Of a DNA stretch of 64,000 bases, positions 49,418 through 57,323 are shown one piece after another. Numbering within the stretch: the first letter of the stretch is position 1; the number at the start of each line of letters is the position of its first letter. The notes under the pieces were generated by a model. It saw nothing but the letters and a program-made list of their open reading frames with translations, searched no databases and was not told the DNA's origin. The translations under genes and the position numbers were made by a program. The stretch is taken from assembly GCA_963732805.1 (NCBI GenBank), contig CAVTAW010000001.1, positions 406,283 to 470,282 of the forward strand. The letters are read 5' to 3'. Origin of the DNA: an uncultured Chloroflexia bacterium. Its GTDB lineage: Bacteria > Chloroflexota > Limnocylindria > Limnocylindrales > CSP1-4.

Positions 49418-50197
49418 GTGGACGATCCCGAACCGTCGATCCGCGATGTGCTCGCGGCCGTGGCCGCGCGCGCGGCGGCCGCCGGGCGGATCGAGCCGTC
49501 AGGGGGCGAAGCGCTGCTGCGCTCGGTGGTCGAGGCGACCGTCGTGCTGTTCGATGCCGAAGCCGCCTCGATCGCGCTCCACGATCCCGTCTCGGACCGC
49601 CTGGTCGTCCGGATCGCTGCGGGGACGGCGGGCGCCGGCGCGGTCGGCCTCAGCTTCCCGGCGACGAGCGGCATCGCCGGCTACGCGTTCGCGACCGGTC
49701 AACCGCTCGCCGTCAGCGACGTGACGGCCGACCCGCGCTTCGACCGGTCCGCAGCAGAGGCGACGGGCTACGTCCCTCGCTCGATCCTGGCCGTCCCGCT
49801 CCTGGACGACGACGGCACGCTGGGCGTGCTCGAGATTCTCGACCGGCGTGGCGCCGGCGGGTTCGACCTGCGTGACCTGGAGCTGGCGTCCGTGTTCGCC
49901 CGGCAGGCGACCGTGGCCATCCGGGCGAGCCGGGTCGAGCGCGACACCGCCGAGCTCCTGCGGGCGGTGCTGGCACGGATCGCCGCGGACCCCGTCAGCG
50001 ACGATGGGGCGATCGACGCGGCGGTGCACGAGGCCGTCGGCCGGCTCGACGATGACGATGACCGCCTGTGGAGGCTGGCCGACGCGGTCGCGAGGGCGCG
50101 CCATGCCGCCCCCGAGCTGGTCGGGCTGGTGATCGAGATCCTGGACGCGCTCGCCCGCCGGACCGGACGCCCCACGCCCCGGTCGTTCCGCCGATGA
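49418..50197 (+). CDS. GAF-domain protein
   Basis: 'GIAGYAFATGQPLAVSDVTADPRF', 'SILAVPLLDDDGTLGVLEILD'. Confidence 0.7.
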   Translation: MDDPEPSIRDVLAAVAARAAAAGRIEPSGGEALLRSVVEATVVLFDAEAASIALHDPVSDRLVVRIAAGTAGAGAVGLSFPATSGIAGYAFATGQPLAVSDVTADPRFDRSAAEATGYVPRSILAVPLLDDDGTLGVLEILDRRGAGGFDLRDLELASVFARQATVAIRASRVERDTAELLRAVLARIAADPVSDDGAIDAAVHEAVGRLDDDDDRLWRLADAVARARHAAPELVGLVIEILDALARRTGRPTPRSFRR

Positions 50198-51009
50198 CGT
50201 CGGGGCTGCCCGCCTGGAGCGAGCCGTTCTCTGCATCCCGCCGCGACGGCATCGCCCGGCACGGTCCCTGGGGCCGGGTCGAGCGGTCGTGGGCCTTCGG
50301 CGACGGGACCGGGCGCGGCGTGCGGGTCGCGATCGTCGATTCCGGCGTGGAGGGCGATCACCCGGCGGTCGGCGGCCGGCTGTCGGACAGCGTGGCGGTC
50401 GAGCGCGACGGGGACGGATGGCGCGTGGTGCCGGCCGCTCCAGATGACCCCGTCGGGCACGGGACCGCATGCGCCGGGATCGTCCACGCGATCGCCCCCG
50501 AGGCGGAGCTGGTGTCCGTTCGGGTCCTGGGCCCCGACAACCGCGGCAACGGCGGTGCGTTCGCCACCGGACTGGCCTGGGCGATCGAATCGTCGGGGGC
50601 GGCGATCGTCAACCTGTCGCTGTCGTCGCGCAGCGAGGCGTATCGCGCGCCGCTGCACGAGCTTGCCGACGCGGCCTACTTCGCGGGCGTGCTGCTGGTT
50701 GCCGCCGCGAACAACCTGGCGGTGGCGAGCTATCCGTCGCTGGATGCGGCAGTCGTGTCGGTGGCCGCGCACGACCTGCCGGACGCGGACGCGTGGTTCT
50801 ACAACCCGGCGCCGCCGGTCGAGTTCGGTGCACGCGGGCTGGACGTGGACGTGGCGTGGCGGGCCCGCTCGCGCATGACCGTCACGGGCAACAGCTTCGC
50901 GGCCCCGCACGTCGCCGGGCTCGCGGCGCGCATCCGGTCCGCGCACCCGGGCATCACGCCGTTCGAGACCAAGGCACTCCTCGCCGCCACCGCGAACAAC
51001 GCGCGGTAG
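50194..51009 (+). CDS. Subtilisin-like serine peptidase (S8), no signal peptide
   Basis: Catalytic triad contexts 'VAIVDSGV', 'HGTACAGI', 'GNSFAAPHVAG'. ATG overlaps the GAF stop (ATGA). Confidence 0.8.
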   Translation: MTSGLPAWSEPFSASRRDGIARHGPWGRVERSWAFGDGTGRGVRVAIVDSGVEGDHPAVGGRLSDSVAVERDGDGWRVVPAAPDDPVGHGTACAGIVHAIAPEAELVSVRVLGPDNRGNGGAFATGLAWAIESSGAAIVNLSLSSRSEAYRAPLHELADAAYFAGVLLVAAANNLAVASYPSLDAAVVSVAAHDLPDADAWFYNPAPPVEFGARGLDVDVAWRARSRMTVTGNSFAAPHVAGLAARIRSAHPGITPFETKALLAATANNAR

Positions 51010-51390: not shown

Positions 51391-51948
51391 TCAGGGGAGG
51401 GTGACGCCCTCGAGCGCGAGCAGGTCCCGTTTGACCGAGAGCGCCGCCTCACGCCCGCCCCACGCGGCGACACCGTAGCCGCCGAGGGTGCCATCGCCGG
51501 CGATGACCCGGTGACACGGGATCAGCAGCCCGACCGGGTTCCGGCCCACCGCGCCGCCCACGGCCCGCGCCGCCCCGGTGCGGCCGATCCGGCGAGCCAC
51601 CTCGCCGTACCCGGCCACCTGGCCGCGCGGGATCGCGCGCACGGCGTCCAGCACCAGGCGATCCCAGGCGGAGCGATAGCCGATGTCCACGGGCAGACGG
51701 TCGAGCGCCACATCCCGACCGGCCAGGTACGTGTCGACGAGGTCCGCGGTGCGGGCGGCCAGCTCGCGCGCGGGTCCGGACGGCGCATCCGCCAGTGGTA
51801 CCGGCGCGCCCAGCCGGCGCCGCGCCAGGCCGGCCTCGAACGCCTCGGCCGAGGACATCAGCTCCAGCGCCAGCACGCCCCGAGGGCCGACCGCGATCCG
51901 CACCGGGCCCCACGGTCCCCCCGCGATCGCGAGCACCACCTCGTTCAT
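51391..51948 (-). CDS. ogt: Methylated-DNA--protein-cysteine methyltransferase (Ogt/MGMT)
   Basis: 'IPCHRVIAGDGTLGGY' active-site motif with an HTH-like segment upstream. Confidence 0.85.
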   Translation of the reverse strand: MNEVVLAIAGGPWGPVRIAVGPRGVLALELMSSAEAFEAGLARRRLGAPVPLADAPSGPARELAARTADLVDTYLAGRDVALDRLPVDIGYRSAWDRLVLDAVRAIPRGQVAGYGEVARRIGRTGAARAVGGAVGRNPVGLLIPCHRVIAGDGTLGGYGVAAWGGREAALSVKRDLLALEGVTLP

Positions 51949-53036: not shown

Positions 53037-53981
53037 ATGTCGCCTCGCTACGTTGGCCGCCTTCGCCGCCCGCGGTTCCGGGGGATCCGCACCCCTGTCG
53101 TGACCGCACGCCAGAGCGCCGGGCGGTTGGCCGTGATCGGCCTCGTGTCGGCGGCGCTCGTCCTTCCGGTCTGGGCCCTGACCACGCAGACCGAGGTCGG
53201 GCAGCGGGTCGCGGACCTCATCCTCTACGGGCGGACCAGTGCCGCCCCGGGTGTCCTCGGGGCGGCCCGGGAGACGCTTGCCTCGATCAGCCTGGCCATG
53301 GCCGTGATCACCGCCCTGGGTCTCGCCACGCTCGCGCTCGCTCGCGGGGGACCCGCGCTGGCCGGTGCCGTCGTCGTGCTGCTCGCCGGCGCGAACGGCA
53401 CGACGCAGCTGCTGCAGGACGTCCTGGGCCGCCCGAACCTCCTGGGCGATGCGGCCTATGCCACCGGGAACAGCTTCCCCAGCGGTCACGTGACGCTCGT
53501 GGCGTCGCTCGCCCTGGCGGGCCTGGTGGTCGCCCCCAGGGGGATGCGCACGGTCGTGGCCATCGCGGTTGCCATCCTCGTCGCCGCGGTCGGCACGAGC
53601 ACCATCTCCGCCGGGTGGCATCGCCTTGCCGACGTCGTCGGCGCGATCCTGATCTCGCTCTCGTGGGCCGCCCTCGCAACCGCAGGCCTGGTGGTCGCCC
53701 AGGGCTGGATGCCCCGCCGGACGTGGCGGCGCGGCGTGAGCGGCGGAGTGGCGACAGCTGCCGCGTTCGTGGGTGCGGCGGCGCTGCTGGCCGGCGGTGT
53801 GGGGCTGGGAGTCGCGATCGTCAATGATGCGCCGCCCGCGGACCTGCTCGCGTCCGGATCCCCGGCGGCGAGAACGTTCGTGGCGGCGGTCACGATCTCG
53901 GCCGGGTCGGCGTTCCTGGCCGTCTCCGCGTTCGTGTGGGCGATGCGCGGGGTCGCGCTGGAGCCTCCGCCCGGGGCCTGA
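53037..53981 (+). CDS. PAP2-family membrane phosphatase
   Basis: 'SFPSGH' and 'GWHRLADVVGA' PAP2 motifs; multiple TM helices. Confidence 0.75.
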   Translation: MSPRYVGRLRRPRFRGIRTPVVTARQSAGRLAVIGLVSAALVLPVWALTTQTEVGQRVADLILYGRTSAAPGVLGAARETLASISLAMAVITALGLATLALARGGPALAGAVVVLLAGANGTTQLLQDVLGRPNLLGDAAYATGNSFPSGHVTLVASLALAGLVVAPRGMRTVVAIAVAILVAAVGTSTISAGWHRLADVVGAILISLSWAALATAGLVVAQGWMPRRTWRRGVSGGVATAAAFVGAAALLAGGVGLGVAIVNDAPPADLLASGSPAARTFVAAVTISAGSAFLAVSAFVWAMRGVALEPPPGA

Positions 53982-54052
53982 CAGCCCGCGTGCGCATGAC
54001 CAGCGGCCCGGCTGCTTCGGGACGGGCGGCATCCCGGGGGTCGGGCACCCAT

Positions 54053-54076
54053 GCTGGTATACTCCCCTAGAGTATG
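54053..54076 (+). promoter_or_regulatory. Extended -10 promoter (TGgTATACT) overlapped by the inverted repeat ATACTC-N5-GAGTAT that runs into the copA ATG; candidate metalloregulator operator and leaderless start
   Basis: Read directly from the sequence: TG 54055-54056, TATACT 54058-54063, IR arms 54059-54064 and 54070-54075, ATG 54074. Confidence 0.45.
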
Positions 54077-56767
54077 ACAAGCGTTCCCGACACCACCCAT
54101 CCCATCGAGATCGTCCTGCCCATCGAGGGCATGACGTGCGCGTCGTGCGTCAACCGCATCGAGCGCTTCCTCAGCAAGACGCCGGGCGTCGAGCAGGCGG
54201 CCGTCAACCTCGCGACCGAGCGGGCGACGATCGTCGTCGATCCGGCACGGGCGGGCCGGGACGAGCTGGTCCGCGCCGTCGAGGCGGCGGGCTACGAGGT
54301 CAAGGCCGAGCCGGCCACCACCGGCGCAGATGCGGCGGTGTCGCTCGAGGCGGAGATCACCGCCGACGATCTCGAGCGGGAACGTGCCCAGCGCCAGACC
54401 CTGGTGCAGTCGCTGGTCGCGATCGCCGCCGCGGCCGTGTTCATGGTCCTGATGTTCGCGCCCCAGACCGCCGTCGCGATGGAGGACCTCAACAAGCTGA
54501 TCCTGTGGCCGGCGACGATCATCCAGTTCTGGGCAGGCGGCCGCTTCTACCGGGCGGCGTGGCGTGCCGCGAAGCACGGCGGGGTCACCATGGACACGCT
54601 GGTCGCGGTCGGGACGAGCGCGGCGTGGGGCTACTCCGTGTTCGTCACCATGTGGCCCGACGACGTTCACGCGGCCGGCCTGCGACCTGAGACGTACTTC
54701 GACTCGGCCACGATCATCATCGGCCTGATCCTGATGGGCAAGTGGCTCGAGGCGCGCGCAAAGGGTCGCACCACCGGCGCGATCCGCCGGCTGGTCGGGC
54801 TCCAGGCAACCACGGCGCGCCGACTTCGCAACGGCGTCGAGGAGGACGTGGATCTCGCGGTGGTCGTGCCGGGCGATCTGCTGCGCGTCCGCCCGGGCGA
54901 CAAGGTGCCGGTGGACGGCGTCGTGGTCGAGGGGACGTCGGCCATCGACGAGTCGATGCTCACGGGCGAGCCGATCCCGGGCACGAAGTCGGCGGGCGAC
55001 GAGGTCATCGGGGCCACGCTGAACACGACAGGCTCGTTCGTCATGCGTACGACCCGGGTCGGACGGGACACGGCGCTGGCCCGGATCGTGGACCTCGTCC
55101 AGCGGGCCCAGGGCTCCAAGGCGCCCATCCAGCGCCTCGCGGACCAGATCAGCGCCATCTTCGTTCCTGCGGTGCTCGCGGTGGCAGCCGTCACGTTCGT
55201 CGCGTGGTTCGTGCTCGGCCCCGAGCCGCGCGTGACGCTCGCGCTGACCGCGTTCATCGGCGTCGTCGTCATCGCGTGTCCATGCGCGATGGGCCTGGCC
55301 ACCCCGACCGCGATCATGGTCGGGACGGGCAAGGGGGCCGAGGCGGGCATCCTGGTGCGTGGCGGCGAGGCGCTCGAGACCGCGGGCCGGATCGACACCG
55401 TGGTCATGGACAAGACCGGCACCCTCACGGTCGGACGGCCCGCGGTCACCGCGATCGTGGCGGCGCCCGGCTTCGCCCAGGAGCAGGTGCTCGACCTCGC
55501 GGCGTCGCTTGAGACCGGCTCGGAGCACCCCCTGGGCGAGGCGATCGTGCGCAGGGCCCGCGAGACGGAGCTCGGCTTCGCGAAGGTGTCGGGATTCGAC
55601 GCCATCGTCGGGCGCGGGGTGCGGGGCACGATCGATGGGGCGGACATCGTGGTCGGCAGCCGGCGCCTGATGGACGAGCTGGATGTGGACCTCGCCGCGC
55701 TGGTCGCGCCCGCCAGGACGGCCGCGGCGGACGGTGCCACGGTCGCGTTCGTGACGATCGGCGCTGCCGCGGCCGGGCTGATCGCGATCTCGGACCCGGT
55801 GAAGCCGGAATCGCGCCGGGCGGTCTCCGAGCTGCGCGACGCGGGGCTCGAGGTGTGGCTGCTCACGGGCGACGCGCGGGTAACCGCGGACGCCGTCGCA
55901 CGCCAGGTGGGCATCCCATCCGACCGGGTGATCGCGGAGGTCCTGCCGGCCGACAAGGACGCGACGATCTCGCGCCTCCAGGGCGAGGGTCGGCGGGTCG
56001 CCATGGTGGGCGACGGCATCAACGACGCGCCGGCGCTCGCCCGGGCCGATCTCGGGGTGGCGATCGGGACGGGGGCCGATGTCGCCATCGAGGCCTCGGA
56101 CGTCACCCTCGTGGGCGGGGATCCGCGGCTCGTCGCATCGGCCATCGGGCTGTCGCGGGCAACGGTCCGGGTGATCCGCCAGAACCTGTTCTGGGCGTTC
56201 GCCTACAACGTGCTGCTGATCCCGATCGCGATGGGCGCGCTGTACCCGTCGCTCGGGATCACGCTCAACCCGGCCATGGCCGCCGGCGCCATGGCCCTCT
56301 CGTCGGTCAGCGTGGTCACCAACTCGCTGCGCCTGCGGGGGATCGATGTCCGACCGGGCGTCACCACCCAGTTGCGGCGAGGTCCGCTGGGGTTGGTGCG
56401 GGACGGGGCCTTCCTGGTCGTCGTGGCGGGCCTGGGGCTTGTCCTGGCGGGCGGCGTCCTCGCCGCGGACCGGGCCGTGGATGCCGCGCTGCCCCACGTC
56501 GTGATCACGGCACGCGCCGGGCAGGTATCGCCGGCCGACGTCACGGTCCGGGCAGGGCAATGGACGGTGATTGAGCTCGTGAACAGCGGGTCGGACGTCC
56601 GCGACTGGATGGTCGCGGGCGTCGCCAACCTGGACATCGTGGCCCGGCCGGGCGAGACCGCACAGCTGCGCTTCGTGCTCGACGCACCGGGGCGCCATCC
56701 GATCCTGAGCGGCGTGGCCGGCCAGTCCGGCCTGCAGGTCGGCACGCTCGTCGTGGCGTCGCCCTGA
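54074..56767 (+). CDS. copA: Cu(I)-translocating P1B-type ATPase (CopA-like) with ~140-aa C-terminal extension
   Basis: HMA 'GMTCASCV', 'CPC' in TM6 ('[12 protein letters not shown]'), 'DKTGTLT', '[10 protein letters not shown]'. After the last canonical TM come an extra TM helix and a beta-rich domain ('[31 protein letters not shown]...'). Confidence 0.9.
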
Positions 56768-56786
56768 GCGTGGGTACACTCGGCGC

Positions 56787-57323
56787 GTGACCGACTCCCC
56801 GCTCGATCCGTTCGCCGCCGTCGCCCCACCCGCCCGCAGCCGGATCGCGGTCCCGGACGATGCCCGCGACCTGCCCGGCGACTTCGGCCACCGGATGGCC
56901 GTCGAGATCCGGTTCGGCGACACGGATGCGATGGGCCACGCCAACAACGCACGATTCCTGACCTACTGCGAGTCGGCCCGGCTTGCCTACTGGGAGGAGG
57001 CGACGGGCGAGCCGGTGGGGCTGCCGACGCACGGCGCGGAGGAATCCATGATCCTGGCCGACATCCAGGTTGCGTTCCGGACGCCCGCGTTCTTCGGCGA
57101 GGTGCTCATGGTGGAGACGCGGATGGGCCGGATCGGGCGGACCTCGTTCACGCTCGAGCACCGGATCACCGCGAGCGAATCACCGCGGGGCCACGCGCGC
57201 CTGGTCGCCACGGCCCACGCCGTCCAGGTCCTGTACGACTACGCGACCGCCCGCCCTCGAGCCGTGCCCGACGAGATCGCCGCCCGCCTCGAAGCCTACG
57301 AGGGCCGGCCGCTCCGAGCCTGA
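56787..57323 (+). CDS. Hotdog-fold acyl-CoA thioesterase (YbgC/4HBT-like)
   Basis: 'FGDTDAMGHANNARFLTYCE'. An alternative start at ATG 56895 is possible. Confidence 0.75.
   Translation: MTDSPLDPFAAVAPPARSRIAVPDDARDLPGDFGHRMAVEIRFGDTDAMGHANNARFLTYCESARLAYWEEATGEPVGLPTHGAEESMILADIQVAFRTPAFFGEVLMVETRMGRIGRTSFTLEHRITASESPRGHARLVATAHAVQVLYDYATARPRAVPDEIAARLEAYEGRPLRA

What the first reader, a model, noticed from the sequence alone, without database searches (positions are those of the whole stretch)
54053..56767. CopA-type Cu(I) ATPase with extra C-terminal TM plus beta-domain, and a palindromic operator overlapping an extended -10 and the start codon
The ATPase has all P1B-1 hallmarks. It continues ~140 aa beyond the usual end with another TM helix and a beta-rich, cupredoxin-like extracytoplasmic domain, which is not a standard CopA feature. 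Upstream, TGgTATACT is overlapped by ATACTC-N5-GAGTAT, whose right arm contains the ATG. That implies a leaderless transcript repressed by a small metalloregulator that is not encoded adjacent.
Basis: partly seen in the sequence, partly recalled or inferred. Interest (0 to 1): 0.55.

Follow-up and report, generated by a model that had tools for sequence, protein, structure and literature searches.

The report
Copper pump with external cupredoxin tail
This is a real copper-export pump from an uncultured soil Chloroflexota lineage that carries an extra membrane helix and an outward-facing cupredoxin domain (here stripped of its copper-binding residues), switched on through a conserved CsoR-type copper-repressor site that covers its promoter and start codon.

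Summary
ORF 54074-56767 (+) encodes an 897-aa P1B-1 Cu(I) ATPase with every hallmark motif. After TM6 it continues with a ninth helix and a 92-aa cupredoxin fold (Pfam PF13473; domain model pLDDT 92.5; Foldseek E 4e-8).

The extension is not a linker and not an artefact. All 120 closest homologues carry it, and the named ones are Candidatus Limnocylindrales (Chloroflexota). CopA from other lineages ends near residue 755.

Half of the family (60 of 121) keeps an azurin-like His-Cys-His-Met copper site. The window protein has Arg, Ser, a deletion and Gln at those positions, so it is a copper-site-less cupredoxin. It is under relaxed but not absent constraint (dN/dS 0.44 against 0.14 for the core).

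The palindrome is real and conserved upstream of the orthologues examined, with the ATG inside its right arm in all but one. It fits the published CsoR operator rule TAC-N9-GTA. Its perfect form sits at copA and csoR genes in metagenomes. A Limnocylindrales csoR gene carries a near-identical site. No regulator lies in the window.

Promoter geometry predicts a 0-4 nt, Shine-Dalgarno-less leader.

Verdict: ordinary regulation, and a lineage-specific new variant of CopA architecture. The function of the domain is untested.

The parts
54055..54063 (+). Extended -10 promoter element TGgTATACT
   Evidence: Read directly from the sequence. In 35 independent copA loci, found through the palindrome alone, the bases outside the searched pattern are T at -1 in 32 of 35, G at -3 in 27 of 35 and T at -4 in 24 of 35. 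A TTGCCN -35-like hexamer lies 17 nt upstream in about ten of them. The same TG(g/c)TATACT appears in the fused-clade loci L001, L004 and L204-L207.
54059..54075 (.). CsoR-type operator ATACTCCCCTAGAGTAT: TAC (54060-62), N9, GTA (54072-74), with a C-tract
   Evidence: It is an exact palindrome of 6-5-6. It fits the TAC-X9-GTA rule and the G/C-tract architecture of CsoR type-2 operators (Tan et al. 2013, PMC3902906). It is conserved upstream of the fused-clade orthologues examined. The perfect form ATACTCCC-N-GGGAGTAT lies next to 43 copA and 9 csoR genes among 120 metagenome loci.
54070..54074 (+). Predicted transcription start zone (0-4 nt leader, no Shine-Dalgarno sequence)
   Evidence: This is an inference from -10 geometry. 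The hexamer ends at 54063, and a start 7-8 nt downstream falls at G54070 or A54071. The register of the -10 to the ATG is identical in 35 of 43 copA sites. There is no GGAG-type motif at 5-13 nt, although most neighbouring genes in related loci have one. No experimental TSS is available.
54074..56767 (+). copA: 897-aa P1B-1 Cu(I)-exporting ATPase with a C-terminal extension (stop codon included)
   Evidence: Supported. Foldseek matches the full model to Legionella CopA 4bbj/3rfu (E 1e-46, 46% identity, TM-score on target 0.72).
54107..54301 (+). N-terminal HMA metal-binding domain (residues ~12-76, GMTCASC)
   Evidence: Pfam PF00403 scores 61 bits over residues 15-75. tblastn with CopZ also hits this region.
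56339..56488 (+). Arg-rich cytoplasmic linker (residues 756-777) and ninth transmembrane helix (~778-800; model helix 771-805)
   Evidence: The hydropathy peak is at 779-797, score 2.55. AlphaFold helices span 771-805 in both models. Four Arg residues precede the helix, while the sequence after it is acidic, so the positive-inside rule places the tail outside. There are no nonsynonymous changes against the 96% relative.
56489..56764 (+). Extracytoplasmic cupredoxin-fold domain (residues 806-897) lacking type-1 Cu ligands
   Evidence: PF13473 matches. The domain model has pLDDT 92.5. Foldseek matches the ba3 oxidase CuA domain 2cua (E 3.6e-8), Brucella FtrB 8vuk (TM-score 0.86) and B. anthracis Cupredoxin_1 4hcf (TM-score 0.86). 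The ligand columns read R/S/gap/Q here against H/C/H/M in 60 of 121 family members.
56787..57323 (+). 4HBT-family thioesterase gene, probably co-transcribed with copA
   Evidence: It starts 20 nt after the copA stop. The same gene follows copA in L204-L207, and in L207 its start overlaps the copA stop. Co-transcription is inferred, not shown.

Best explanation
The locus is the copper-detoxification copA gene of a Candidatus Limnocylindria (Chloroflexota) genome.

**Regulation (inferred).**
- A CsoR-family repressor encoded elsewhere in the genome binds the TAC-N9-GTA operator when it is copper-free.
- The operator spans the -10 hexamer, the predicted transcription start and the ATG, so the bound repressor blocks RNA polymerase.
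- Cu(I) binding to the Cys-His-Cys site of CsoR releases it.
- The extended -10 promoter then fires, producing an mRNA with a 0-4 nt leader that is translated without a Shine-Dalgarno sequence.

**Product (shown by sequence and model).**
- It is a canonical eight-helix P1B-1 Cu(I) pump.
- A lineage-specific module is fused to it: a cytoplasmic Arg-rich linker, a ninth transmembrane helix and a cupredoxin domain on the outer face of the membrane.

**Origin and state of the module (inferred).**
- It descends from membrane- or lipid-anchored type-1 copper cupredoxins. In other lineages these are separate genes in CsoR-box copper loci, and they probably handle copper after export.
- In this genome the His-Cys-His-Met site is gone.
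- The domain is therefore most likely a copper-free scaffold kept for a structural or docking role at the exit side of the pump. It is not a redox or copper-binding centre.
For: **Pump identity.** Motifs, family scores and structural matches agree.

**The fusion is real and clade-wide.**
- All 120 best homologues (73-96% identity) are 844-920 aa long. Most carry a precomputed PF13473 hit.
- The named sources are Candidatus Limnocylindrales or Chloroflexi.
- Apparent short 'stand-alone' hits are fragments that still contain ATPase TM5-TM6, or that start at contig ends.

**Fold and topology** are supported.

**Ligand loss.**
- Alignment columns give H/C/H/M in 60 of 121 members and R/S/gap/Q in the window.
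- A neighbour-joining tree with parsimony puts HCHM at the root, with at least 7 losses.
- Ligand-less domains are about 50% identical to each other, against 66% for intact ones at equal core divergence. They still keep the AG-W, N, W-M, N, ARPGQT-LR, PG-Y and G-L-V framework.
- dN/dS against the 96% relative is 0.44 for the domain, 0.14 for the core and 0 for the linker plus TM9.

**Operator.**
- It is conserved in WIN, L001-L008 and L204-L207 while the flanks diverge.
- It fits the CsoR TAC-X9-GTA rule and the Streptomyces consensus ATATACCCCTNAGGGGTATAT.
- The perfect palindrome is adjacent to 43 copA genes, 35 of them with the ATG in the same register, and to 9 CsoR-family genes.
- The Limnocylindrales CsoR P0284 has the RLRR DNA-binding motif and the C-H-C Cu(I) fingerprint.
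- Its gene is preceded by ATACTCCCCGGGGGTAT in L201. Its relative in L202 is preceded by ATACTCCCTGGGGGTAT.

**Separate cupredoxin genes in CsoR-box loci elsewhere.** L144 has a lipoprotein cupredoxin downstream of an unfused copA. L084 has a TM-anchored cupredoxin with a Met-rich linker.
Against: - No experiment exists. There is no TSS mapping, no repressor binding assay and no metal analysis.
- The csoR gene of this particular genome was not seen; only 64 kb is available.
- In the window the right half of the operator is degenerate (TAGAG instead of GGGAG), so affinity may be lower than at the perfect sites.
- The -10 lies 4 nt further from the ATG than in typical leaderless genes, so 'leaderless' in the strict sense is doubtful.
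- The 'structural scaffold' role of the ligand-less domain is the weakest step. A dN/dS of 0.44 rests on 22 substitutions and is only marginally below neutrality by rough estimate.
- His808, Met846 and His875 could form a non-canonical site.
- The full-length model (pLDDT 71.6, pTM 0.52) is too uncertain to place the domain relative to the copper exit.
Confidence: 0.72

Rival explanations
1. The ligand-less cupredoxin domain still binds exported Cu(I) through a non-canonical site, for example Met846, His875 or His808. It would then act as a low-affinity exit-side acceptor, as Met-rich periplasmic copper proteins do.
For: Many ligand-less orthologues replace the His-Cys-His-Met loop with Met-rich loops such as IMSGMAGEGEMAG. 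This suggests a shift to thioether Cu(I) coordination rather than simple decay. W845-M846 is nearly invariant in both classes. The domain is retained at essentially full length in most of the 61 ligand-less sequences.
Against: The window protein has no Met-rich loop: [16 protein letters not shown]. It has only one Met and two His in residues 800-897 and no Cys. His875 is specific to the window and its 96% relative, while the others have Tyr there.
Confidence: 0.2
2. The domain is a decaying relic in this sub-lineage. It was once a functional type-1 copper centre and is now functionless, kept only because truncation would disturb TM9 or the pump.
For: All four ligands are lost. The domain evolves about three times faster than the core at the amino-acid level, with dN/dS 0.44 against 0.14. 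Domain identity among ligand-less members is 0.50 against 0.66. There were at least 7 independent ligand losses.
Against: None of the 61 ligand-less proteins has a frameshift or premature stop. A framework of about 25 positions is conserved at 80% or more in that class. dN/dS remains below 1. The fold is predicted with pLDDT 92.5.
Confidence: 0.2
3. The palindrome acts at the RNA level. Transcription would start upstream, and a hairpin would sequester the AUG as a translational or attenuation switch, rather than the sequence serving as a DNA operator.
For: RNA 54050-54100 folds to -11.3 kcal/mol with z = -2.4 against shuffles, and the AUG lies in the stem.
Against: - Any DNA palindrome folds as RNA.
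- Changes in the arms among orthologues are not compensatory. L003, L004 and L207 have TAGTAT opposite ATACTC, whereas TAC/GTA and the C-tract stay fixed.
- The left arm doubles as a conserved extended -10, with a -35 at 17 nt in several lineages. Transcription therefore most likely starts inside the palindrome, and the hairpin could not form.
- The same sequence marks csoR genes.
Confidence: 0.05
4. The operator is bound by a repressor of another family, such as ArsR/SmtB, CopY or TetR-like, and not by CsoR.
For: No regulator is adjacent in the window or in any of the 13 fused-clade loci, so the assignment is indirect. The same 17-mer also occurs at dnaA-rpmH and trxB-like loci, which are not classical CsoR targets.
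Against: There is no CopY box (TACANNTGTA). The position at -10 to +1 is that of a repressor, not of a MerR/CueR-type activator, which binds between -35 and -10. The site matches TAC-X9-GTA exactly. The palindrome sits at the start of 9 CsoR-family genes, and a near-identical site precedes the Limnocylindrales csoR.
Confidence: 0.08

Closest known systems
CopA1-type P1B-1 Cu(I) ATPases (Legionella pneumophila CopA, PDB 3rfu/4bbj; Archaeoglobus fulgidus CopA, 3j09)
   Same: Same core: an HMA domain, eight TM helices, CPC, YN and MxxSS copper-site motifs, and the A, P and N domains. It is 46% identical to LpCopA, with TM-score 0.72 on the target.
   Different: The known structures end after TM6. 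This protein adds a linker, a ninth helix and an outward-facing 92-aa beta domain.
CsoR-controlled copZA/csoR promoters of Streptomyces lividans (type-2 operator ATATACCCCTNAGGGGTATAT; Tan et al. 2013, PMC3902906)
   Same: A 17-bp pseudo-palindrome with TAC-N9-GTA flanking C/G tracts, at the promoter of a copper-efflux gene. The regulator's own gene carries a similar site.
   Different: The half-site is ATACTCCC rather than ATACCCCT. The -10 hexamer is the left arm, and the ATG is built into the right arm at a fixed register. csoR is unlinked from copA, and there is no copZ gene.
Streptococcus pneumoniae CopA N-terminal cupredoxin-like metal-binding domain and its partner CupA
   Same: In the literature searched, this is the only described cupredoxin fold attached to a P1B ATPase. 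It is also membrane-tethered.
   Different: That domain is N-terminal, faces the cytoplasm and binds a binuclear Cu(I) cluster through Cys and Met. The domain here is C-terminal, follows an extra TM helix, faces outward and has no Cys.
Cupredoxin_1 / EfeO-type cupredoxin domains (Brucella FtrB 8vuk; E. coli EfeO 7wgu; B. anthracis 4hcf) and the CuA domain of ba3 oxidase subunit II (2cua)
   Same: Best structural matches: E 4e-8 to 2e-6, TM-score up to 0.86 on the target. Subunit II shares the 'one TM helix then an external cupredoxin' layout.
   Different: Sequence identity is only 12-26%. Those proteins bind copper. The window domain lacks every canonical ligand.
CopI, a periplasmic cupredoxin-like copper-tolerance protein
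   Same: It is an extracytoplasmic cupredoxin implicated in copper tolerance alongside CopA-type export (abstract of PMC13308877). This is the same functional context as the intact orthologues and as the separate cupredoxin genes in L144 and L084.
   Different: CopI is a soluble, separate protein with His/Met-rich regions. No sequence comparison with CopI was made here.

Membership tests
P1B-1 (CopA1) Cu(I)-exporting P-type ATPase | P-type catalytic motifs DKTGT, TGE and GDGxND | tested here: met
   DKTGT is at 446-450, TGE at 297-299 and GDGIND at 646-651.
P1B-1 (CopA1) Cu(I)-exporting P-type ATPase | Transmembrane Cu(I) site signature: CPC in TM4, N-x6-YN-x4-P in TM5 and M-x2-SS-x5-[NS] in TM6 | tested here: met
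   CPC is at 402-404, [14 protein letters not shown] at 704-717 and [11 protein letters not shown] at 740-750.
P1B-1 (CopA1) Cu(I)-exporting P-type ATPase | Curated family model above its cut-off | tested here: met
   TIGR01511 scores 599.9 bits against a cut-off of 397. The E. coli CopA equivalog NF007952 scores 683 against 1316, so the protein is not an equivalog of that model.
P1B-1 (CopA1) Cu(I)-exporting P-type ATPase | ATP-driven Cu(I) export conferring copper tolerance | not testable with these tools
   Needs transport or complementation assays.
Cupredoxin (Pfam Cupredoxin_1, PF13473) | Greek-key beta-sandwich fold matching solved cupredoxins | tested here: met
   The domain model has pLDDT 92.5 with nine strands. 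Foldseek probability is 1.00 to 2cua, 8vuk, 7wgu and 4hcf.
Cupredoxin (Pfam Cupredoxin_1, PF13473) | Profile score above the gathering threshold | tested here: met
   27.8 bits in the full protein and 32.1 bits on the tail alone, against a cut-off of 27. The margin is narrow.
Type-1 (blue) copper protein | His, Cys, His and Met copper ligands | tested here: not met
   The window has Arg843, Ser878, a gap and Gln at these columns. 60 of 121 family members have H/C/H/M. There is no Cys beyond residue 404.
CsoR type-2 operator | 5'-TAC-X9-GTA-3' inverted repeat | tested here: met
   TAC is at 54060-62 and GTA at 54072-74, with exactly 9 nt between them. The feature is invariant in the 13 fused-clade sites.
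CsoR type-2 operator | G/C tracts between the TAC and GTA dyads | tested here: inconclusive
   The left tract CCCC is present. The right tract is degenerate in the window (TAGAG) but complete (GGGAG) in L005-L008 and in the metagenome sites.
CsoR type-2 operator | Association with copper-efflux and csoR genes (regulon and autoregulation) | tested here: met
   43 copA and 9 CsoR-family genes lie next to the perfect palindrome in 120 loci. Near-identical sites precede the Limnocylindrales csoR in L201 and its relative in L202.
CsoR type-2 operator | Binding by apo-CsoR and release by Cu(I) | not testable with these tools
   Needs EMSA or ITC with the cognate protein. The csoR gene of this genome lies outside the window.
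Leaderless mRNA | Transcription start at the first base of the start codon | not testable with these tools
   No transcriptome data are available. Geometry predicts a start at 54070-54071.
Leaderless mRNA | -10 (TANNNT) about 12 nt upstream of the start codon and no Shine-Dalgarno sequence | tested here: inconclusive
   No Shine-Dalgarno sequence lies at a usable distance. The hexamer begins 16 nt upstream, not about 12 nt. The register is fixed in 35 of 43 copA sites.
S. pneumoniae-type cupredoxin metal-binding domain (CopA N-MBD / CupA) | N-terminal, cytoplasm-facing, Cys/Met binuclear Cu(I) site | tested here: not met
   The domain is C-terminal, follows an extra TM helix and contains no Cys.

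The most novel reading that the evidence does not exclude
The Limnocylindria CopA family is a natural 'Rosetta-stone' fusion of a Cu(I) pump with its extracytoplasmic copper acceptor. In the intact members, the tethered type-1 cupredoxin would take Cu directly from the pump's exit site and oxidise it or pass it on. The repeated loss of the ligands, as in this window, would mark a switch of the domain to a copper-independent gating or docking role on the outer face of the pump. That would be the first P1B ATPase with a functional trans-side soluble domain.
Probability: 0.15. Interest if true: 0.7.

Novelty: new variant of a known kind. Interest (0 to 1): 0.45.

Why it matters
How Cu(I) leaves a P1B pump, and who receives it on the outside, is still poorly defined.

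- **A usable natural series.** A clade in which the presumed acceptor is covalently tethered next to the exit offers a direct handle on that step. About half of its members have an intact blue-copper site. The rest have Met-rich or empty sites.
- **A functional link.** The fusion also connects the large, mostly uncharacterised Cupredoxin_1 family to copper efflux.
- **An uncultured lineage.** For Limnocylindria, an abundant soil and freshwater group, it defines the copper regulon signature (TATACTCCC-N-GGGAGTATG) and shows that copA is one of their rare genes without a Shine-Dalgarno sequence.

The regulatory part is textbook CsoR logic and is not surprising. The window's own copy has lost the copper site, so it is the least informative member of the family for the copper-acceptor question.

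Tried and rejected
- **Gene-call or assembly artefact.** I considered that the tail was a separate downstream gene fused by error. The first homologue search returned many 116-254 aa 'stand-alone' proteins. Their sequences contain ATPase TM5-TM6, or they begin at contig ends, and all 120 full-length relatives are fused. Rejected.
- **Actinobacterial origin.** GC content of 70-75% suggested this. Named homologues and MAG titles are Limnocylindrales/Chloroflexota. Rejected.
- **Regulator in the window or near orthologous copA genes.** tblastn with CsoR, CopY, CueR and a Limnocylindrales CsoR core found nothing. The same CsoR queries did find CsoR in L010, L011, L201 and L202, so the queries work.
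- **Promoter and terminator scan.** The simple sigma-70 and terminator scan of 53600-57200 found nothing. The promoter has no -35 match in the window and relies on the extended -10.
- **Representative-library search with the tail.** Only 75 hits at E up to 1e-3, mostly fragments. This was useful mainly to show that further ATPase-fused copies exist.
- **PDB sequence search.** Only weak CuA and EfeO hits (E 0.04-0.6). The fold search was needed.
- **Literature searches for an ATPase-cupredoxin C-terminal fusion, or for Limnocylindria copper biology.** These found no description. That is absence within the held library only.
- **Strictly leaderless reading.** Not adopted, because the -10 is 4 nt too far from the ATG.
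Full report
**1. What is in the sequence**

The ORF runs from 54074 to 56767 on the + strand and encodes 897 aa. An in-frame TAG at 54068-54070 excludes any earlier start. No in-frame ATG, GTG or TTG follows before Met20, which lies inside the HMA fold, so the ATG at 54074 is the only plausible start.

The upstream sequence reads ...catgcTGgTATACTCCCCTAGAGTATGaca...:
- TGgTATACT occupies 54055-54063.
- The palindrome ATACTC-N5-GAGTAT occupies 54059-54075.
- Its last two bases are the A and T of the start codon.

The palindrome is unique in the window. Within-window statistics are modest:
- At up to 2 mismatches, 14 of 100 shuffles give a match.
- For ATAC-N9-GTAT, 3 of 100 shuffles give a match.

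**2. The pump**

All P1B-1 signatures are present: GMTCASC, TGE, CPC, DKTGT, SEHPL, GDGIND, N-x6-YN-x4-P and M-x2-SS-x5-N.
- Pfam finds HMA, E1-E2_ATPase and Hydrolase.
- NCBIfam TIGR01511 (copper-translocating P-type ATPase) scores 600 bits against a cut-off of 397.
- The full-length AlphaFold model has pLDDT 71.6. Its best match is Legionella CopA 4bbj/3rfu, with E 1e-46, 46% identity and TM-score 0.72 on the target.

**3. The C-terminal extension**

After TM6, which ends near residue 755, the protein continues as follows:
- An Arg-rich linker.
- A strongly hydrophobic segment, [19 protein letters not shown] (779-797), modelled as a helix from 771 to 805.
- Nine beta strands.

The evidence for a cupredoxin fold:
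- Pfam Cupredoxin_1 is just above threshold, at 27.8 and 32.1 bits against 27.
- A domain-level model built on 22 homologous fragments reaches pLDDT 92.5.
- Foldseek matches it to the CuA domain of ba3 oxidase subunit II (2cua, E 3.6e-8). It also matches Brucella FtrB (8vuk), E. coli EfeO, B. anthracis Cupredoxin_1 (4hcf) and the NosZ CuA domain, with TM-scores up to 0.86 on the target.

TM6 of a P1B pump ends in the cytoplasm. The linker carries four Arg residues, and the sequence after the helix is acidic. The positive-inside rule therefore puts the cupredoxin domain outside the cell. This is an inference.

**4. How common is it?**

- All 120 best homologues (73-96% identity) are 844-920 aa long. 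Most carry a precomputed PF13473 hit.
- The sources that give a name say Candidatus Limnocylindrales or Chloroflexi, which is class Limnocylindria in phylum Chloroflexota.
- Across one genome per species, only L001-L006 and L008 match beyond residue ~800 and through residue ~873-897, and all are Chloroflexota MAGs. The other 73 loci, from many phyla, end at residue ~743-796, mostly near 755.
- The short 'stand-alone' hits of the first search are fragments of fused proteins.
- More distant representatives again include ATPase-cupredoxin fragments.

The extension is therefore a lineage-specific, stable fusion. It is neither a common linker nor an artefact.

**5. The copper site**

Half of the family (60 of 121) has an azurin-like type-1 set: VVHDWMV ... 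MCSIPGHAEAGMVG, that is His, Cys, His and Met. These members also hit PF00127.

The window protein has Arg, Ser, a deletion and Gln at those columns. It has no Cys after residue 404, and only His808, Met846 and His875 in the tail. Other ligand-less members carry Met-rich loops such as IMSGMAGEGEMAG.

On the history and constraint of the domain:
- A neighbour-joining tree of the ATPase core with parsimony places H/C/H/M at the root, with at least 7 losses. This is a rough estimate.
- At equal core divergence (~0.81 identity), ligand-less domains are 0.50 identical to each other, against 0.66 for intact ones.
- A framework is still kept at 80% or more: AG-W, N, W-M, N, ARPGQT-LR, PG-Y, G-L-V.
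- Against the 96% relative L204, dN/dS is 0.14 for the core, 0 for the linker plus TM9, and 0.44 for the domain (12 nonsynonymous and 10 synonymous changes).

Constraint is therefore relaxed but not neutral.

**6. Where the module came from**

Two metagenome loci carry the same operator together with a separate cupredoxin gene.
- In L144, an unfused copA is followed by a lipoprotein cupredoxin with intact ligands.
- In L084, a TM-anchored cupredoxin with a Met-rich linker lies 450 nt from the operator.

This supports an origin by fusion of an operon partner. It also links extracytoplasmic Cupredoxin_1 proteins to copper efflux. Both points are inferences.

The literature I could search describes only one cupredoxin on a P1B pump, the N-terminal cytosolic one of S. 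pneumoniae CopA. CopI is described as a separate periplasmic cupredoxin for copper tolerance. I found no description of this fusion.

**7. The operator**

Upstream regions of the orthologues diverge freely, except for one block:

| Locus | Sequence |
|---|---|
| WIN, L204 | TATACTCCCCTAGAGTATG |
| L001 | TATACTCCCCCCGAGTATG |
| L205, L206 | TATACTCCCCAGGAGTATG |
| L207, L004 | TATACTCCCCCCTAGTATG |
| L005, L007 | TATACTCCCTGGGAGTATG |
| L008 | TATACTCCCAGGGAGTATG |
| L006 | TATACTCCGGGGGAGTATG |

In all of these except L002, the ATG is the end of the right arm.

Tan et al. 2013 (PMC3902906) define CsoR type-2 operators as TAC-X9-GTA dyads flanking G/C tracts. The Streptomyces consensus is ATATACCCCTNAGGGGTATAT. 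The window site has TAC at 54060-62 and GTA at 54072-74, with exactly nine bases between them.

- 43 lie next to copA, and 35 of those have the ATG in the identical register.
- 9 lie next to CsoR-family genes. There is some redundancy among contigs.

The homologues of one such CsoR include P0284, annotated as from Candidatus Limnocylindrales.
- P0284 has the RLRR motif and the Cys-His-Cys Cu(I) fingerprint.
- Its gene is preceded by ATACTCCCCGGGGGTAT in L201. A syntenic relative in L202 is preceded by ATACTCCCTGGGGGTAT.

No CsoR lies in the window or within 8-10 kb of any fused-clade copA.

The best reading is an unlinked, probably autoregulated CsoR that represses copA.

**8. Promoter and leader**

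Positions outside the searched palindrome are conserved in the 35 copA sites: T at -1 in 32 of 35, G at -3 in 27 of 35 and T at -4 in 24 of 35. This gives TGnTATACT. About ten sites also have TTGCCN 17 nt upstream. The left arm of the operator is therefore the -10 element.

The hexamer ends 10 nt before the ATG, and its first T is at -16. Leaderless genes typically show it at about -12 (Zheng et al. 2011, PMC3160421).

A start 7-8 nt after the hexamer falls on G54070 or A54071, giving a 3-4 nt leader. There is no room for a Shine-Dalgarno sequence.

In 73 called genes of related loci, most have GGAG-type motifs 8-13 nt upstream. copA is the exception.

I therefore call the transcript Shine-Dalgarno-less and leaderless-like. 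Strict leaderlessness is unproven.

**9. RNA-hairpin alternative**

The region folds to -11.3 kcal/mol with z = -2.4. Three points argue against an RNA element:
- Arm changes among orthologues are not compensatory.
- The promoter lies inside the palindrome.
- The same sequence marks csoR genes.

**10. Context**

The gene order PAP2 - copA - 4HBT thioesterase - two ketoacyl synthases - FabD - MarR is conserved in L204-L207. This is a stable chromosomal gene, not an island. The thioesterase gene starts 20 nt after the copA stop and is probably co-transcribed.

**11. Verdict**

- The regulator is of the CsoR type.
- The leader is probably 0-4 nt.
- The cupredoxin domain has lost its copper site in this genome.

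The regulation is an ordinary member of a known kind. The architecture is a new, clade-wide variant of CopA whose function is untested. Interest is moderate.

Noticed in passing
L083, L109, L124, L128 and others (metagenome loci): The same 17-mer ATACTCCC-N-GGGAGTAT lies in the intergenic region between dnaA-like and rpmH/rnpA-like genes in a set of high-GC contigs. In L109 it is the core of a 16-1-16 palindrome, gaatagcgATACTCCCAGGGAGTATcgctattc. The gene identities were judged from motifs by eye, not by a family scan.
   Followed up: partly
L087, L099, L111, L118, L129, L148, L152, L159, L189, L200: Twelve loci have the palindrome 17-29 nt upstream of thioredoxin-reductase-like genes (CATC motif). 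This may be a second regulon member, or the target of a related CsoR-family sensor such as a persulfide sensor.
   Followed up: no
L103, L117, L123: Cys-rich proteins with a YHS/TRASH-like C-terminus (VCGM...FCGKGC) sit next to the palindrome. They are candidate additional copper-regulon members.
   Followed up: no
window 51391-51948 (-); L125, L132, L136, L164 and 13 other loci: An MGMT/Ogt-like gene (PCHRV motif; PF01035 in L204-L207) is divergently transcribed from copA and shares the operator region in 17 metagenome loci. In the window the same gene lies 2 kb upstream, separated from copA by GNAT and PAP2 genes.
   Followed up: partly
window 56787-57323 (+); L207 10685-11203: A 4HBT-family thioesterase gene always follows copA in the fused clade. 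In L207 its start overlaps the copA stop (ATGA), which suggests co-transcription and translational coupling with a copper pump. This pairing is unexplained.
   Followed up: partly
L144 470-1039 (-) and 3475-4068 (-); L084 2570-3121 (+): Separate extracytoplasmic cupredoxin genes with intact His/Cys/His/Met lie in CsoR-box copper loci: a lipoprotein one downstream of an unfused copA, and one that is TM-anchored with a GGSGMM Met-rich linker. L144 also has an upstream gene with two YxCxMGMY repeats.
   Followed up: partly
L089 1564-1580: One locus has csoR and copA divergently transcribed from a single copy of the palindrome. This is the linked arrangement that the Limnocylindria fused clade lacks.
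   Followed up: no
window 49418-51009 (+): A GAF-domain protein gene is followed by a subtilisin-type (S8) peptidase gene. The same pair is conserved upstream of the copA neighbourhood in L204 and L207.
   Followed up: no
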